Shown here: positions 16,435-50,605 of the stretch, piece after piece
Position numbering within the stretch: position 1 is the first letter of the stretch
Layout of the letters: the number at the start of each line of letters is the position of its first letter
Source of the DNA: a virus
UHGV virus genome: UHGV-1368966
DNA: 52,993 nucleotides
Strand: one strand, 5' to 3'
Position numbers and translations under genes: made by a program
Notes under the pieces: generated by a model
What the model saw: the letters and a program-made list of their open reading frames with translations, nothing else
Told to the model about the DNA's origin: nothing
The model's database searches: none

Positions 16435-16792
16435 AAGGCCATATCTCCAAGGTCATGGTGACATACCAATGTCGTGCGCCAACGGGGGCAAACTGGATTT
16501 CCGAATCGCCTTTTACCCGCACATAGCGGTACACATCGGCTGTCGGGTCGGGCCACCAGAAGGACCTCCCGGCGTTGCCGTCAAGAAAATCCTTCATCGT
16601 GGCCTTCTGTTCCCATTTCAGAAGATACTTGACTGAGCGGGACTCTGTGCCCGCGCTCGACCGCCTACGCTGACGCTTCGGGCCAGCGTCCATATCCGTC
16701 ACGATAACGTCATAGTTCGGCGTCTCCCCATAACTATCAACAAGCGGCCTCTGTTGAAGCGAGACGGGCCATGTGATTTCGGAATATGCCAT
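16415..16792 (-). CDS. Minor tail protein, gpM-like.
   Basis: 125 aa, immediately after the tape measure gene, overlapping its stop. Confidence 0.45.
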   Translation of the reverse strand: MAYSEITWPVSLQQRPLVDSYGETPNYDVIVTDMDAGPKRQRRRSSAGTESRSVKYLLKWEQKATMKDFLDGNAGRSFWWPDPTADVYRYVRVKGDSEIQFAPVGARHWYVTMTLEIWPYVSRNK

Positions 16793-19419
16793 CAGCGCCC
16801 CCTCACCACAGGCTTGACGCCGTACCGCCCCCGTATCGTCTGGTCGATGACTCCCCCACGGGCAATGTCAGATGCCATTTCTCGCTTGAGCAAGACCACA
16901 ACGTCCATGCCGCCCTGCGCATTACGCTGTTGTTGGACTTCGGCGGTAGCGTCGGTGCCCGTCTGGTTGATGACTTGGATGTTGATTTGCGGAGTAATGC
17001 TACTAGAACTCTGTGCCCGTACCCCGAGATCGCCGCTGGATGTCCGCACAAGAGGCATAACCGCCTCACTTCTCCCCGGTACTTCGCCCATGACGCCGCC
17101 CTGTGCAAAAGGCGTCAGGCTATCAAAGCCGAAGAACGTTGGCCTGTTGATAATCCTGTTTGAATATGCGGATATCCCCGGTCCGGATAGGACGTTACCG
17201 TGTGCATTCGGAAGCGCACCAGCAACGATAGAATCAGCAAGATTATTGAACTTGATGTTCGTAGACCAATTAGAGAACAAGCCACCCAACGCCCCCGCCA
17301 ACGGCCCGGTTATGTTCGCCCGTACTGTCAGCCGCACAAGATCGGCAATCATCGAGTTGATCATGTCAGAGAACGACAGCTTCCCCGTTTCCGCCATTTT
17401 CACGAAGGCATCTTCAATACCTGTGAGTGTGCCCGTGGTCAGGTTCTCGAACGACGCTGCAAGGTTTTCCGTCTCAATGCGGTACCTCGTGAGGCCCCGG
17501 TAGGCACCTGCCCACGGATCGCGGGAAAGCTCAAGGGACAAGATCTCCAGCATTTTGTTCACATCATCAATGGGGATGCCCATCGCAATCCAGACTTCAC
17601 GCTGTTTCTCAAGCAACTGGTTCTGATAGCTGATGCTCGAACTGTATTCCCCGGTCTTCTCCGAAAGCTGTTTGTAGAACTCGGCCTTCTCTTGGAGGTT
17701 CTGGTTCTCCAATTCCTCAAGCTTCTTGTTCGCCTCAAGAACGGCCTTGCGCTTCGTGAGTTCAGCTACCTGTTCGGCCTGTGCCGCCGTCGCCTGTTTC
17801 CGGCGTATCGTCTCTTCCTTGGTGACATCGGCGTTCTCAATGGCGGCGTCGCGTTCGGCCTCAATCTGCACCCGCATTCGTTCGAACTTCGTCAGGGTAG
17901 GGTCAAGGGAGTCTTCGAGAGACGAGACTTCATTGCGAAGCTTTTTCAGGCTGGATTCGTATTGGGCAGAACTTTCCGCAAATTTCTTTGCTTCTGATTC
18001 TTCCTTATTTTTCCCCCTTTTTTTATTCTCCTTTTCTTCTAGTGCTTTCTTTTCATCTGCATATTGCTTATCAAGCCTTGATTTTGTCTGGATAAGATCC
18101 GCGTAATCTTTTCCCTCTTGTTTACGCTTATCTATTTGAGCATCTATAAACTTAACATTTTCATTATATTCATTTTTTATATTTTGAAGACGGGATTCAT
18201 ATGTAGTTTTGAGTGATTCACGGATTTGAGCATACCCTTTCGATTCAGCATCTGCCGCAGCCTTTGCCGCCAATTCAGAAGCCCTTTGTCTCTTTTGTTC
18301 AGCAACCATACGTTGCTGTTCAACTTTATCGTATGCGTCACCAGACTTAAGTATTAAATCAACCATTTTCTGGCGATTCATAAAATCTGCTTTTACAAAC
18401 TTGTCATAATCAAGTTTACCTTCTGATACGAGTTTCATTCCCTGAGAGAACGTTTCTCCTACAGAACGCAGATTCGCATATTCGCGGACTTGTTTAAGTG
18501 CTTCCGTTATTTCATTAATAACATCAACTACAGATTCGCTATCAAGAATATTCGCTTTGAATAGAGTCCACTCTGTGCTCATCTTGTTGATAGCCTGTTG
18601 AACACCATTGGAAGCGCTTTGAGCAGAGGCTCCAAATTTGTTTTCCAAAGCGTCGGCAAGTTTTGGCAACAAGTCTTCGGCAGTCAATTTGCCATCCGCC
18701 ATGAACTTATCCAGTTCTGCCGTTGTCATCCCCATAGCTTGAGCAGCAAGCTGAAATGCACCTGGTAGCCGTTCACCAAGCTGTCCACGCAATTCTTCTG
18801 CCTGAACTTTTCCCTTTGAAATCATCTGACCGAGGGCTAGAAAGATTCCCTGCATTTGATCTGTAGACAAAGATAATGACGTACCAGCTTTTGAAATACT
18901 GGTAAAAATTTTATCCATATCTTTTTCAAGAGATGTACCTTGCGCAGCAGAAAAGAATGTCTTTGCAGACTCAGCAGTGGAGACAAATTCAAGACCAAGC
19001 TTTTGAGACGTATTATATATAAAATCTAATTGTTCTTTCGCTAATTCTGAACTTCCAGCAATAGACGTATATGATTTGTTTAATCTGTCAACGGATATTG
19101 AAGCATCTAAAAGAGCTTTACCCATAGACATTATTTTATCTATAGCAATCAAACCAGTAAATACACCAACAGCTTTTGAAAGCATAGAAAATGAAGACTC
19201 AGTTTGTTTTGCAGAATCTCCGGTTTTCTTTATACCATCGCTGGCTTTTTTACCTGATTCACCTACTTCTGATAGTTTATTTTTTACTTTTCCTGCGCTA
19301 TTAGACATGCCATCCATAATGGTTATCGCGTCTCTAGCACCTATCTTCAGCTTGGCAATATCAAATTCAACTTGGAATACAGGCATGGCATACCTCAATA
19401 TTTTGTGCAAGTATGCCAT
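16792..19419 (-). CDS. Tail tape measure protein.
   Basis: 875 aa. Long coiled-coil, KE-rich central region. Upstream of the M/L/K/J-like genes. Confidence 0.75.
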   Translation of the reverse strand: MAYLHKILRYAMPVFQVEFDIAKLKIGARDAITIMDGMSNSAGKVKNKLSEVGESGKKASDGIKKTGDSAKQTESSFSMLSKAVGVFTGLIAIDKIMSMGKALLDASISVDRLNKSYTSIAGSSELAKEQLDFIYNTSQKLGLEFVSTAESAKTFFSAAQGTSLEKDMDKIFTSISKAGTSLSLSTDQMQGIFLALGQMISKGKVQAEELRGQLGERLPGAFQLAAQAMGMTTAELDKFMADGKLTAEDLLPKLADALENKFGASAQSASNGVQQAINKMSTEWTLFKANILDSESVVDVINEITEALKQVREYANLRSVGETFSQGMKLVSEGKLDYDKFVKADFMNRQKMVDLILKSGDAYDKVEQQRMVAEQKRQRASELAAKAAADAESKGYAQIRESLKTTYESRLQNIKNEYNENVKFIDAQIDKRKQEGKDYADLIQTKSRLDKQYADEKKALEEKENKKRGKNKEESEAKKFAESSAQYESSLKKLRNEVSSLEDSLDPTLTKFERMRVQIEAERDAAIENADVTKEETIRRKQATAAQAEQVAELTKRKAVLEANKKLEELENQNLQEKAEFYKQLSEKTGEYSSSISYQNQLLEKQREVWIAMGIPIDDVNKMLEILSLELSRDPWAGAYRGLTRYRIETENLAASFENLTTGTLTGIEDAFVKMAETGKLSFSDMINSMIADLVRLTVRANITGPLAGALGGLFSNWSTNIKFNNLADSIVAGALPNAHGNVLSGPGISAYSNRIINRPTFFGFDSLTPFAQGGVMGEVPGRSEAVMPLVRTSSGDLGVRAQSSSSITPQINIQVINQTGTDATAEVQQQRNAQGGMDVVVLLKREMASDIARGGVIDQTIRGRYGVKPVVRGR

Positions 19420-20670: not shown

Positions 20671-21010
20671 TTGTACTCCTCCCTTCCGGTACCGTACCAG
20701 CACTTCACCCCATCCCGCAACGTGAATCTTGACAACAAACGCATTTCGTGCTCTTGTTTTTTCACGGCCTTCAACAGCCGACAACAAGCGGATACCGCGC
20801 CCGCAGATGCGGATTTTTTATGCCCTGTCAAGAATGTTTTTCGTCTTGGAAGTGGTGTATCATCCAGCCTGTATTTGGGCCGGGAGTCCATCCATTATAC
20901 AATACCCGCAAGGGAAAGGTGTATGGGCCGTTCTTGTTGACGGTGTTGAAGCTCCCGGCCCTTTTTCTATTCTGAAAGGGGGAATTCAACAACACAACAA
21001 GGGGTTTACC

Positions 21011-40382: not shown

Positions 40383-40465
40383 CTCCGCTATCGGCCCCGC
40401 ATAAAAACCTTGGGCAGGGGCGCGGAATACCCTTTTCGGCTGGCCTGCCTAGCCCAAGGAAATTT

Positions 40466-48882: not shown

Positions 48883-48892
48883 TTTGATGATA

Positions 48893-48920
48893 ATCTCCCT
48901 TTGCAGGGAGATTTTTTTTG
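48893..48920 (+). terminator. Intrinsic terminator.
   Basis: atctccct-ttgc-agggagat followed by T8. Confidence 0.65.
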
Positions 48921-48950
48921 CCTACATGATTTTGTTTTCAAAATTTTCTA

Positions 48951-48979
48951 TTGACATATTATCCCGAAAACGAGATACT
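48951..48979 (+). promoter_or_regulatory. Sigma70-like promoter upstream of the tRNA cluster.
   Basis: TTGACA, a 17-nt spacer, then GATACT. Confidence 0.4.
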
Positions 48980-49181
48980 GTTTTCACGACGAACGGGGAA
49001 GGTAAACACGCCCGGCACACTAGCCGGAAAGTAGCCAGAATGCCCCGTGAGAAGGAAGCCAGTTTGGGCGGCATGAAGGCCGTAGCAATACGGTGGGCGG
49101 AGCAAGAGGCCGCCCGGAAAGCTCGAAAGAGGCCCGTGAGACTGGTGAGGTTCAGGAACAGCAACAGGACGTAGACCAATA

Positions 49182-49257
49182 GGGAATGTAGCTCAATAGG
49201 CAGAGCGTCAGACTCATAATCTGCGGGTTTTGGGTTCAAATCCCGACATTCCCACCA
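49182..49257 (+). tRNA. tRNA with CAT anticodon (elongator Met or lysidine Ile2).
   Basis: Canonical 76-nt cloverleaf. Acceptor GGGAATG/CATTCCC. D-loop contains GG. Anticodon loop ctCATaa. T-loop ttcaaat. Encoded CCA. G1:C72 argues against an initiator. Confidence 0.85.
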
Positions 49258-49259
49258 AA

Positions 49260-49347
49260 GGACGGGTTGCCGAGAGGATGAAGGCAGCGGTCTTGAAAAC
49301 CGCCGATGTGAAAGCATCCGTGGGTTCGAATCCCACCCCGTCCGCCA
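49260..49347 (+). tRNA. tRNA-Ser (TGA).
   Basis: Acceptor GGACGGG/CCCGTCC. Anticodon loop ctTGAaa. Long variable arm cgatgtgaaagcatccg. T-arm gtggg-ttcgaat-cccac. Encoded CCA. Confidence 0.85.
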
Positions 49348-49525
49348 GATTGAAAAGTGAAGAGTCGTTGTTTCGAGGGATGGATTCGCAGAGGTGCCCG
49401 TGTCCAGATAGTGGTGCACGCGCATAAAAATTCCTCGCGTAGAGAGAGCCGAATATCTGCGGTGCGTTTGCCAGATTCGGCATGGCAAGCAAAGGCGGCT
49501 CCATCCGCTCGAAACAGCGACACAC
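49348..49525 (+). ncRNA. Structured 178-nt spacer between tRNA-Ser and tRNA-Gln. Function unknown.
   Basis: 49365..49383 pairs with 49501..49520 in a 19-bp helix (one bulge, one G-U) that encloses several local hairpins. Co-transcribed with the tRNAs. Confidence 0.35.
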
Positions 49526-49600
49526 AGCCGGGTAGCCAAGCGGTTACGGTAACAGGCTTTGACCCTGTGATCGGCGGTTCGAATCCGCCCCCGGCTGCCA
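49526..49600 (+). tRNA. tRNA-Gln (TTG).
   Basis: Acceptor AGCCGGG/CCCGGCT. D-arm gccaagcggttacggt. Anticodon loop ctTTGac. T-arm ggcgg-ttcgaat-ccgcc. Encoded CCA. Confidence 0.8.
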
Positions 49601-49849
49601 TGTTCAAATATCGCCGTTCCCTGTGATGCGGGGATAACCATTAGCCCTCAAGATGGTGAGATGTCAGCCAACTTCATTTCCCTGCATCAACACGGAACGG
49701 CGTTCCGATTCAGAAGGCAAAGGACAAGGTGCCCTTCGGGGGTATGGTGCGAGAAAAGGCGTCATGTGGAATGGCGTACTCCGAAAGGACGCAAGGTAGC
49801 TGTTGACCGACCATAGCAGCGTAACAATATACAATATAATGGAAATACA

Positions 49850-50071
49850 ATGGATAACCAGATCGAAGATGAAGAAATCAAACTGCTCTCGCGCCAGATT
49901 GCCTTGGCAGCCTGTCGTCTTGGACTTAGCGCAGAAGTGATCTTGAAGCCTCTTGTAAGGCGTGAAATCGACATGAACGCACAGCTTGCCGCAGTTTCAG
50001 CCATGATGCTCGGTAATGTGAACAAATCCGGTGAAAAGAACCCTTCCGAAGAGTGCGCTGAATCAGAATAG
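49850..50071 (+). CDS. Small hypothetical protein.
   Basis: GGAAA precedes ATG 49850. 73 aa. A putative promoter TTGACC...TATAAT region lies upstream. Confidence 0.35.
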   Translation: MDNQIEDEEIKLLSRQIALAACRLGLSAEVILKPLVRREIDMNAQLAAVSAMMLGNVNKSGEKNPSEECAESE

Positions 50072-50077
50072 TACAAT

Positions 50078-50310
50078 AGTTTTCCTATCCGACCGCCAGC
50101 GCAAGACGTTGGCGGTAAGGGTGTGAAAACATCCGGTGGTAGATTTCGACACTAGCCGCTGGTCTAGGACGTGGTGATTCCCGGTGTATTGAACTAGGCA
50201 TCGGTCATAGCCGCGTTGGAAAAGGTAACCAGTGAAGCCCCGGTGCCTCTCCTCCGGGCAGTAACCGCATGTGGGCGGGTGGTTCGATGCCGCCCGCCCA
50301 TGAAGTTTTC
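50078..50310. repeat. Direct repeats AGTTTTCC(C)TATCCG(A)CC flanking a GC-rich structured segment.
   Basis: Copies at 50078..50097 and 50294..50310. The interior contains the long hairpin tgggcggg-tggttcgatgcc-gcccgccca with a T-loop-like GGTTCGAT. Confidence 0.35.
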
Positions 50311-50451
50311 CCTATCCGCCATACCACCGATGACACTACCACCGGACTGGGCGGGTTATGGGGGCTGATTGTCAAAGAACGATTATTAAAATGAGCTTAT
50401 TTAGAAGATAAAACAGTGTATCATATTGAAAAAGTTGATATTCTTAAAACT

Positions 50452-50550: not shown

Positions 50551-50605
50551 ACGGAATCTCAAAAAGAATTGAAAACGTCTTTTGAGATTCCGTTCCCCTT
50601 TTTTC
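50551..50605 (+). terminator. Long hairpin plus T-run (terminator-like).
   Basis: acggaatctcaaaaag...cttttgagattccgt forms a 16-bp stem, then tcccc and T6. Confidence 0.35.

What the first reader, a model, noticed from the sequence alone, without database searches (positions are those of the whole stretch)
49348..49525. A 178-nt highly structured RNA domain is embedded in the phage tRNA operon.
tRNA-Met(CAT) and tRNA-Ser lie 2 nt apart. tRNA-Gln then follows only after a 178-nt spacer. The ends of that spacer, 49365..49383 and 49501..49520, form a 19-bp helix enclosing about 117 nt that contain further hairpins, for example gccgaatatctg...cagattcggc. This is not a fourth tRNA, since no T-arm or anticodon architecture was found. 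It could be a processing element, a ribozyme, an sRNA released by RNase P/Z processing, or a degenerate intron.
Basis: seen in the sequence. Interest (0 to 1): 0.55.

Follow-up and report, generated by a model that had tools for sequence, protein, structure and literature searches.

The report
Structured RNA cassette inside phage tRNA array
The 178-base gap between two phage tRNA genes is a real, conserved, self-folding non-coding RNA module of a kind not in Rfam, one interchangeable cassette in a modular RNA/tRNA array carried by human-gut Bilophila-type phages; what it does is unknown.

Summary
tRNA-Met and tRNA-Ser(UGA) lie 2 nt apart, and tRNA-Gln(UUG) follows after 178 nt. That spacer folds at -76.5 kcal/mol (z = -5.9). 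Its closing helix is 21 bp, or 25 bp with an extension.

The spacer matches no tRNA and no Rfam family, even at E<=10. The same element ("type A") occurs in 18 phage or gut-metagenome contigs as 11 sequence variants, always directly after tRNA-Ser. The closing helix is kept through one-sided changes. One inner hairpin shows three compensatory pairs and is wholly replaced by another hairpin in one variant. Five G-U pairs and the covariance-model scores (222 versus 24 bits) place the structure on the + strand.

In other contigs an unrelated ~220-nt element ("type B") fills the same slot. It is also closed by a long helix, and one lineage carries A and B in tandem. A third long hairpin follows tRNA-Gln.

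The whole block sits behind a sigma-70-type promoter and a 165-nt structured leader. In related phages that leader starts 450-700-nt tRNA-free non-coding RNAs that have no Rfam match.

Most likely it is a stem-locked RNA module co-transcribed with the tRNAs and cut free by tRNA-processing nucleases. This is inferred, not shown. Its function in trans is unknown.

The parts
48951..48979 (+). Sigma-70-type promoter of the array (TTGACA, 17 nt, GATACT). It follows the terminator of the upstream gene at 48892-48913.
   Evidence: A promoter sits at the same distance before CACGACG in the related loci, although the surrounding sequence differs.
48985..49150 (+). Structured 5' leader, rich in GNRA loops. 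It is the conserved 5' domain of a wider phage non-coding RNA family.
   Evidence: 90-95% identical in more than 20 contigs. RNAalifold finds 6 pairs with compensatory changes. No Rfam hit.
49182..49257 (+). tRNA-Met(CAT), with CCA encoded.
49260..49347 (+). tRNA-Ser(TGA), with CCA encoded.
49348..49363 (+). Single-stranded purine-rich linker GAUUGAAAAGUGAAGA between the tRNA-Ser CCA end and P1. I infer it is the 3'-trailer cleavage site.
   Evidence: Unpaired. The same linker precedes type B cassettes.
49364..49389 (+). P1 5' strand (49364-49384 plus 49386-49389).
49391..49436 (+). P2. This comprises the GAGG/CCUC stem (49391-49394 with 49433-49436) and a variable hairpin (49395-49406 with 49412-49424).
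   Evidence: Three compensatory pairs in L020 and a wholesale hairpin replacement in L098.
49438..49461 (+). P3 hairpin CGUAGA/UCUGCG. Its loop holds GCCGAAU (49448-49454).
   Evidence: One U-G to C-G change in L102.
49466..49490 (+). P4 hairpin GUUUGCCA/UGGCAAGC. Its loop holds AUUCGGC (49475-49481), complementary to the P3 loop, giving a possible 7-bp kissing contact.
   Evidence: The columns are invariant, so the contact is inferred.
49495..49521 (+). P1 3' strand (49495-49498, 49500-49506 and 49508-49521, with a bulged G at 49507).
49526..49600 (+). tRNA-Gln(TTG), starting 4 nt after P1.
49612..49702 (+). Type C element, a long hairpin: 49612-49633 pairs with 49680-49702 around an interior of about 45 nt.
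   Evidence: The helix is kept in a diverged variant (L002, L098, L103) with one compensatory and three one-sided changes.
49703..49849 (+). Conserved trailer segment.
   Evidence: 89-95% identical in related arrays.
50073..50370 (+). Further conserved non-coding modules shared with tRNA-free arrays.
   Evidence: L004, L015, L047, L112, L099; sequence.

Best explanation
The spacer is a self-contained, independently folding RNA module, here called a type A cassette. A 25-bp helix joins its two ends and closes a four-way junction. One arm of that junction is variable (P2). The other two arms are short hairpins (P3, P4) whose loops are complementary.

The module is transcribed on the + strand from the promoter at 48951-48979, as part of one long non-coding precursor. 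The order on that precursor is: structured leader, tRNA-Met, tRNA-Ser, cassette, tRNA-Gln, a second hairpin element, trailer.

The flanking tRNAs act as punctuation. RNase P cutting at the 5' end of tRNA-Gln, 4 nt after P1, would set the cassette's 3' end. Endonucleolytic cleavage in the A/U-rich linker after the encoded CCA of tRNA-Ser, RNase E-like in a proteobacterial-type host, would set its 5' end. That would leave a 160-180-nt RNA whose ends are locked in a long helix and so protected from exonucleases. RNase III may additionally cut the 25-bp helix.

The released module would then act as a structured RNA in its own right, as a protein-binding or decoy RNA or as a subunit of a larger RNA assembly.

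Shown here: the structure, its strand, its conservation, its cassette-like exchange and its likely co-transcription. Inferred: the processing route, the stability and any function in trans.
For: Fold:
- z = -5.9.
- P1 pair probabilities are about 1.

Conservation:
- The element is present in 18 contigs as 11 variants, always between tRNA-Ser(TGA) and tRNA-Gln(TTG) or a type B cassette.
- P1 is kept through U-G to U-A, G-C to G-U and U-G to C-G changes.
- P2 has 3 compensatory pairs, and L098 has a different hairpin at the same place.
- 99.3% of cells are paired, and 0 of 500 shuffles reach the covariation score.

Strand:
- There are 5 G-U pairs.
- The covariance model scores 222 bits on + and 24 on -.
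- Minimum free energy is -76.5 on + versus -68.8 on -.

Not coding:
- Variants differ by 1-5-nt indels.
- The only ORF runs into tRNA-Gln.

Punctuation geometry:
- Other tRNA-tRNA gaps in these arrays are 2-3 nt.
- All three tRNAs encode CCA.

Cassette behaviour:
- An unrelated ~220-nt element with an 18-22-bp closing helix fills the same slot in L049, L051, L099, L109 and L113.
- A and B stand in tandem in L020 and L110.

Single transcription unit:
- The promoter position is conserved.
- No terminator-like site lies on the + strand between 48914 and 50300.

Evidence that these phages maintain non-coding RNA genes built of such modules:
- The same leader heads 450-700-nt RNAs that run from a promoter to a terminator without tRNAs.
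Against: - There are no expression or end-mapping data, so nothing shows that a discrete RNA accumulates.
- Sequence diversity is low (mean column identity 95%). P1, P3, P4 and the loop-loop contact are almost invariant, so they are supported by thermodynamics and one-sided changes only.
- The apparent invariance of the core is not clearly above the 90-95% identity of the surrounding array, so selection on its sequence is unproven.
- One variant has a mismatch in P1 (L102), and one has a 24-nt insertion in its 3' arm (L115).
- No partner protein gene is linked. The downstream genes differ between phages.
Confidence: 0.45

Rival explanations
1. It is a cis-acting, essentially passive insert. 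On this view it is a stem-closed intervening sequence, like those in some 23S rRNA genes. Its long helix would be cut by RNase III, which separates the tRNA precursors, and the excised piece would be discarded. Its only role would be as a processing or insulating spacer, or it could be a tolerated selfish insertion.
For: - The 25-bp closing helix is of RNase III substrate size.
- Unrelated sequences (A, B, or A+B) occupy the same slot, and arrays work with either.
- The helix holds the two flanking tRNAs together whatever lies inside it.
- Conservation of the core is not clearly above the local background.
Against: - The interior keeps an elaborate fold, with a compensated P2 hairpin and complementary P3/P4 loops. 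A pure processing stem would not need this.
- Related phages keep whole promoter-to-terminator genes built only of such modules, with no tRNA to process.
- The other tRNA pairs in the same arrays are processed with 2-3-nt spacers and no stem.
Confidence: 0.25
2. The cassette is not released at all. On this view it is an integral domain of one giant modular RNA of more than 1 kb: 5' leader domain, linker carrying tRNAs and cassettes, then 3' modules. Such an RNA would act as a whole, by analogy with GOLLD RNAs that carry tRNAs in their linker region.
For: - The leader (48985-49150) and the modules at 50073-50370 lie about 100 nt apart within one RNA in L004. In the window they are about 920 nt apart, with the tRNA/cassette block between them.
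- There is no + strand terminator in between.
- GOLLD has a variable 5' region, a conserved 3' region and sometimes tRNAs in the linker (PMC12286853).
Against: - No GOLLD or ROOL covariance-model match at E<=10.
- Canonical tRNAs with encoded CCA are expected to be excised by RNase P, which would cut the RNA apart.
- A 73-codon ORF (49850-50071) lies between the block and the 3' modules in this window, though it has no diverged homologues.
Confidence: 0.2
3. It is a DNA-level element. The terminal inverted repeats would mark a miniature transposable element, a recombination site or a cruciform, and the RNA fold would be incidental.
For: - It has 21-bp terminal inverted repeats.
- It shows presence/absence and swapping between otherwise similar arrays.
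Against: - Five G-U pairs would be A-C mismatches on the other strand.
- The covariance model scores 222 bits on + and 24 on -.
- Compensatory changes occur in an internal hairpin.
- Types A, B and C have unrelated terminal repeats, so no single recombinase site is shared.
- No target-site duplication is visible at the junctions.
- nhmmer and the covariance model find no copies elsewhere in the window or the other sources searched.
Confidence: 0.04
4. It is a degenerate or unconventional tRNA, a tRNA intron remnant or a small self-cleaving ribozyme.
For: - P1 closing three arms gives a cloverleaf-like four-way topology.
- It sits among tRNAs.
- Odd tRNA-like genes exist in sister arrays.
Against: - ARAGORN finds nothing here.
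- No Rfam tRNA, tmRNA, intron or ribozyme model matches at E<=10.
- P1 is 25 bp, not 7.
- There is no T-loop or anticodon-loop motif.
- Both flanking tRNAs are complete, so nothing needs splicing.
Confidence: 0.03

Closest known systems
Phage T4 RNAC and RNAD (species 1 and 2 stable RNAs of the T4 tRNA gene cluster)
   Same: These are non-tRNA RNAs of about 120-140 nt, encoded among phage tRNA genes and made with them, with function still unknown (PMC9697503). Their position in the tRNA cluster and their processing from tRNA precursors are from my own knowledge of the T4 literature.
   Different: - No sequence relation was detected or testable here.
- T4 is a virulent myovirus of E. coli, whereas this is a temperate phage of a gut Desulfovibrionaceae host.
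- The T4 RNAs are not known to be interchangeable cassettes closed by 20-25-bp helices, nor to be linked to a large structured leader.
GOLLD and ROOL large ornate phage RNAs
   Same: - They are encoded in phages and prophages, often next to tRNA islands, and GOLLD sometimes carries tRNAs in its linker (PMC12286853; PMC5737381).
- The array here also combines a conserved structured 5' domain, embedded tRNAs and further structured modules.
- The tRNA-free relatives are 450-700 nt long.
   Different: - No covariance-model match to either family at E<=10.
- The modules are mosaic and shuffled between phages.
- The embedded 178-nt cassette is a closed unit rather than part of a conserved core.
Functional RNAs derived from tRNA-operon spacers (E. 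coli 3'ETS-leuZ and internal spacers acting as sRNA sponges)
   Same: The RNA lies between or after tRNAs in a polycistronic precursor and is released by the tRNA-processing nucleases (my own knowledge).
   Different: Those are short, largely unstructured pieces that act by base pairing. This one is a 178-nt compact fold with few single-stranded bases.
Intervening sequences of 23S rRNA genes
   Same: They are stem-closed inserts of 100-200 nt at a fixed slot, sporadic and variable between strains, and excised through RNase III cleavage of the closing helix (my own knowledge).
   Different: Those sit inside rRNA helices, not between tRNAs, and their interiors are not known to keep an elaborate conserved fold.

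Membership tests
tRNA (RF00005) / tmRNA | Cloverleaf with a 7-bp acceptor stem, T-arm and anticodon arm, detectable by ARAGORN or the Rfam model. | tested here: not met
   No gene is called in 49348-49525. No tRNA-clan match there at E<=10.
GOLLD (Rfam) / ROOL (Rfam) | Match to the family covariance model. | tested here: not met
   No match at gathering score or at E<=10 in window 48900-49900, L067 or L004.
GOLLD / ROOL | Phage or prophage location next to tRNA genes, with tRNAs sometimes inside the RNA. | tested here: met
   Phage genes. tRNAs lie between the structured leader and trailer.
Small self-cleaving ribozymes and group I/II introns (Rfam families) | Match to a family covariance model with its catalytic core. 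| tested here: not met
   No such hit at E<=10 in 48900-49900.
T4-type stable RNAs of phage tRNA clusters (RNAC/RNAD) | A non-tRNA RNA gene embedded in a phage tRNA cluster. | tested here: met
T4-type stable RNAs of phage tRNA clusters (RNAC/RNAD) | Accumulates as a discrete stable RNA processed from the tRNA precursor. | not testable with these tools
   No transcript data are available.
RNase III-excised intervening sequence | A closing helix of about two turns or more, with variable or alternative content at a fixed slot. | tested here: met
   25-bp P1. Type B, or A+B, occupies the same slot.
RNase III-excised intervening sequence | Cleavage of the helix by RNase III. | not testable with these tools
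   This needs an enzyme assay or end mapping.
Miniature inverted-repeat transposable element | Multiple dispersed copies with target-site duplications, and strand-neutral inverted repeats. | tested here: not met
   Found at a single context only. G-U pairs and strand-asymmetric scores.

The most novel reading that the evidence does not exclude
The cassette may be one payload of a previously undescribed class of giant, mosaic phage RNAs from gut Desulfovibrionaceae (Bilophila) phages. In this reading a conserved 5' domain, tRNAs used as punctuation or as tethered cargo, and swappable stem-closed modules make up a GOLLD/ROOL-like system. That would be a third, unrelated lineage of tRNA-associated ornate phage RNA, and the alternative cassettes (A, B, C) would carry distinct activities such as decoys against host defences.
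Probability: 0.2. Interest if true: 0.75.

Novelty: new member of a known kind. Interest (0 to 1): 0.5.

Why it matters
Phage tRNA clusters are usually read simply as lists of tRNAs. This one shows that a gap in such a cluster can hold a conserved, elaborately folded RNA that is exchanged as a cassette between phages. It also points to an unannotated family of long modular non-coding RNAs in phages of Bilophila, a gut bacterium relevant to disease.

GOLLD and ROOL are the two known large phage RNAs that sit near tRNA islands. Both were recently shown to form RNA cages, and their function is still unknown. An independent RNA system in the same genomic setting would offer a new handle on why phages couple structured RNAs to tRNAs.

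If the cassette is only a processing spacer, the finding is of modest, local interest.

Tried and rejected
- **Rfam.** I searched at gathering score on the whole window and at E<=10 on 48900-49900, L067 and L004. Only the tRNAs matched. A weak sX4 hit overlaps tRNA-Ser and is far below threshold.
- **Known phage and E. coli genomes.** BLAST of the region and of 25 kb of the window against INPHARED phages and E. coli genomes matched only the tRNA genes.
- **A wasted scan.** One tRNA-to-tRNA gapped pattern was wasted because the gap range was one base too short. The corrected scan found only the three loci already in hand.
- **Search for more type A copies.**
  - A 16-mer from the core gave mostly chance hits.
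  - nhmmer and a covariance model found no further or divergent copies in 117 and 35 sources respectively.
- **Coding potential.** Rejected. The only ORFs overlap tRNAs, and variants differ by frame-breaking indels.
It is less stable than P3 + P4.
- **An alternative pairing, CGCAGAGG/CCUCGCG.** It is weakened by the G-to-A change in L020.
- **Fremin et al. 2023 phage structured-RNA catalogue.** No supplementary sequences are held, so overlap could not be checked.
- **Host assignment of the window itself.** An exact TerL look-up gave only metagenome contigs. Bilophila is therefore inferred from the leader in B. wadsworthia ATCC 49260.
- **ORF 49850-50071.** It has a single 97%-identical cluster and no diverged homologues, so whether it is a gene is undecided.
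- **Untested idea.** The linker GAUUGAAA resembles the AUUGAAA(C/G) handle of CRISPR repeats. I treated this as probably coincidental.

Full report
**1. Observation**

ARAGORN and Rfam agree on three tRNA genes: tRNA-Met(CAT) at 49182-49257, tRNA-Ser(TGA) at 49260-49347 and tRNA-Gln(TTG) at 49526-49600. The first two are 2 nt apart, and the third follows after exactly 178 nt (49348-49525).

Folded as RNA, the spacer reaches -76.5 kcal/mol, against -52.8 +/- 4.0 for 200 dinucleotide-preserving shuffles (z = -5.9). 49364-49384 pairs with 49500-49521 (21 bp, one bulged G), and 49386-49389 pairs with 49495-49498 (4 more bp). Pair probabilities are 0.97-1.0.

No tRNA, tmRNA, ribozyme, intron or any other Rfam family matches the spacer, even at E<=10.

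**2. Relatives and conservation of the fold**

No sequenced phage in INPHARED and no E. coli genome matches anything here except the tRNAs.

Pattern scans of IMG/VR and of metagenome contigs recovered the same element, which I call type A. It occurs in 18 contigs counting the window, as 11 distinct sequences, mostly from human-gut samples. It always starts right after tRNA-Ser(TGA).

The alignments (A1 and A3) and RNAalifold give the following fold:
- P1, 25 bp.
- P2, made of GAGG/CCUC plus a variable hairpin.
- P3, CGUAGA/UCUGCG.
- P4, GUUUGCCA/UGGCAAGC.

Support for each part differs:
- **P1** is kept through U-G to U-A, G-C to G-U and U-G to C-G changes. There is one mismatch in one variant.
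- **The P2 hairpin** has three pairs with changes on both sides (L020). In L098 it is replaced outright by a different perfect hairpin (CCCGGCA-AAGAA-UGCCGGG).
- **Overall**, 99.3% of cells pair, and none of 500 column shuffles reaches the observed covariation score.
- **P3, P4 and most of P1** never vary, because mean column identity is 95%. For these the support is thermodynamic only.

In the P3 + P4 fold the two 7-nt complementary stretches lie in the two loops. A loop-loop kissing contact (duplex -8.9 kcal/mol) is therefore the natural reading, but it is an inference.

**3. Strand and coding potential**

Five G-U pairs would be A-C mismatches on the other strand. The covariance model scores 222 bits on + and 24 on -. 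The minimum free energy is -76.5 on + and -68.8 on -.

Variants differ by indels of 1-5 nt, and the only ORFs run into the tRNAs. This is an RNA-level element on the tRNA strand, and it is not coding.

**4. Context: the spacer is one cassette in a modular array**

- **An alternative cassette at the same slot.** In L049, L051, L099, L109 and L113 the slot between tRNA-Ser and tRNA-Gln holds an unrelated 216-221-nt element, type B. It follows the same linker GAUUGAAAAGUGAAGAG and is again closed by a long helix. RNAalifold gives 18 bp continuing into stacked hairpins. One pair is compensated (U-A to C-G), and there are two U-G to C-G or U-A changes. L020 and L110 carry A and then B in tandem.
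- **A third hairpin element.** Type C (49612-49702) follows tRNA-Gln in every array. A diverged version in L002, L098 and L103 keeps the helix.
- **Other tRNA spacers are tiny.** All other tRNA-tRNA spacers in these arrays are 2-3 nt, including arrays with five tRNAs (L103, L112).
- **Promoter and leader.** The block is preceded by a terminator (48892-48913), a promoter (TTGACA, 17 nt, GATACT, at 48951-48979) and a 165-nt leader rich in GNRA loops (48985-49150). The promoter position is conserved in relatives although its surroundings differ. The leader shows six compensated pairs.
- **The leader also heads tRNA-free RNAs.** In L004, L009, L012, L015, L040, L047, L060, L067 and L072 the same leader heads 450-700-nt stretches that run to an intrinsic terminator. 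They contain no tRNAs and match no Rfam family. The L004 stretch folds with z = -5.1.
- **Shared 3' modules.** Modules at 50073-50370 of the window lie about 100 nt downstream of the leader in L004, but about 920 nt downstream here.
- **Variable downstream genes.** The genes that follow the arrays differ between phages: TerB, DUF3560, SocA/Panacea and Bro-N/ANT. The array therefore behaves as a self-contained accessory unit.
- **Host.** The only named genome carrying the leader is Bilophila wadsworthia ATCC 49260.
- **Phage type.** The window itself is a temperate siphovirus-type genome, with integrase, tape-measure, portal, terminase and DnaB genes.

**5. Mechanism**

Shown here: a conserved + strand fold, cassette exchange at a fixed slot, and a position in one probable transcription unit. 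No + strand terminator-like site lies between 48914 and 50300.

Inferred from established tRNA processing:
- RNase P cutting at +1 of tRNA-Gln would leave the cassette with a 4-nt 3' tail after P1.
- Cleavage in the A/U-rich linker after the encoded CCA of tRNA-Ser would trim the 5' side.
- The 25-bp helix would then protect both ends. It is also long enough to be an RNase III substrate.

I favour a released, stable, stem-locked RNA with a function of its own (0.45). The interior keeps an elaborate fold, and sister phages maintain whole genes built only of such modules.

The main rivals are:
- A passive, RNase III-excised spacer like the intervening sequences of rRNA genes (0.25).
- An unreleased domain of one giant GOLLD-like RNA (0.2).
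- DNA-level or tRNA/ribozyme readings, which are unlikely (0.04 and 0.03).

**6. Comparison with known systems**

The element works like the T4 RNAC/RNAD stable RNAs, which have unknown function (PMC9697503). It also works like spacer-derived RNAs of bacterial tRNA operons (my own knowledge). The wider array resembles GOLLD and ROOL in its setting, a phage next to or around tRNAs (PMC12286853, PMC5737381).

It is not a member of any of these by the only membership test available, the covariance-model match, which was not met. I therefore file it as a new family within a known kind.

**7. Caveats**

- The family is narrow and shallow (about 95% identity), so statistical covariation is limited to P2.
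- The invariance of the core is not clearly above the local background.
- There are no expression data.
- The host of this particular window is inferred.
- The 73-codon ORF (49850-50071) between the tRNA block and the 3' modules has only near-identical relatives, so its status is open.

Noticed in passing
window 48985-49150; L004 932-1630, L067, L009, L015, L040 and others: The leader is the 5' domain of an unannotated family of 450-700-nt phage RNAs that run from a promoter to a terminator. They are rich in GNRA loops and have mosaic sub-domains closed by covarying helices (GCCAG..CUGGU versus GCCCCA..UGGGGU). They match no Rfam family.
   Followed up: partly
window 50270-50310: CAUGUGGGCGGGUGGUUCGAUGCCGCCCGCCCAUG forms a 13-bp stem with a UUCGAUG loop. 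It resembles a tRNA acceptor/T-arm minihelix and lies within conserved non-coding modules (50073-50370) shared with tRNA-free arrays.
   Followed up: no
window 50551-50605: A perfect 14-bp hairpin (ACGGAATCTCAAAA / TTTTGAGATTCCGT) is followed by a T-run. It is probably the terminator that ends the array transcript. The simple scan missed it because its loop is 15 nt.
   Followed up: no
L002 532-616; L035, L049, L051, L099 (about 36 nt upstream of tRNA-Ser where one is present); L112 2970-3044: These are tRNA-like genes with abnormal anticodon loops. ARAGORN calls 'tRNA-???' with a 2-base or a 4-base (cata) anticodon. The L002 copy looks like a recombinant between such a gene and tRNA-Ser.
   Followed up: no
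L103 6162-6262 and L112 2786-2886: A 101-nt 'tRNA-Phe(aaa)' is called within five-tRNA versions of the array. Its length and anticodon are unusual.
   Followed up: no
L001 about 12370-12250 (- strand): This element has an acceptor-like stem (CCCCUAG/CUAGGGG) and a canonical T-arm (GAGGUUCGAUUCCUC), but a long non-tRNA body. It sits between the leader and tRNA-Ser. ARAGORN does not call it.
   Followed up: no
window 17664-17750: ARAGORN calls an 87-nt tRNA-Gln(ctg) inside the tape-measure ORF (16792-19419, - strand). Rfam does not see it, so it is probably a false positive.
   Followed up: no
window 20878-20968 (+) and 40395-40459 (-): Rfam matches above gathering score to sRNA-Xcc1 (63.7 bits) and to int-alpA RNA (46 bits).
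   Followed up: no
window 49850-50071: A 73-codon ORF lies in the segment that varies between arrays. The segment is only about 120 nt in L112 and L099 and holds a TerB gene in L001 and L003. The only relatives of the ORF form a single 97%-identical cluster.
   Followed up: partly
L009 (array-oriented about 530-570); window 50363-50375: GTCAAAGAACA is repeated three times in tandem after the array in L009, and a single copy (TTGTCAAAGAACG) occurs in the window before an AT-rich stretch. These may be protein-binding repeats.
   Followed up: no
L115 501-702: This type A copy has a 24-nt insertion within the 3' strand of P1.
   Followed up: no
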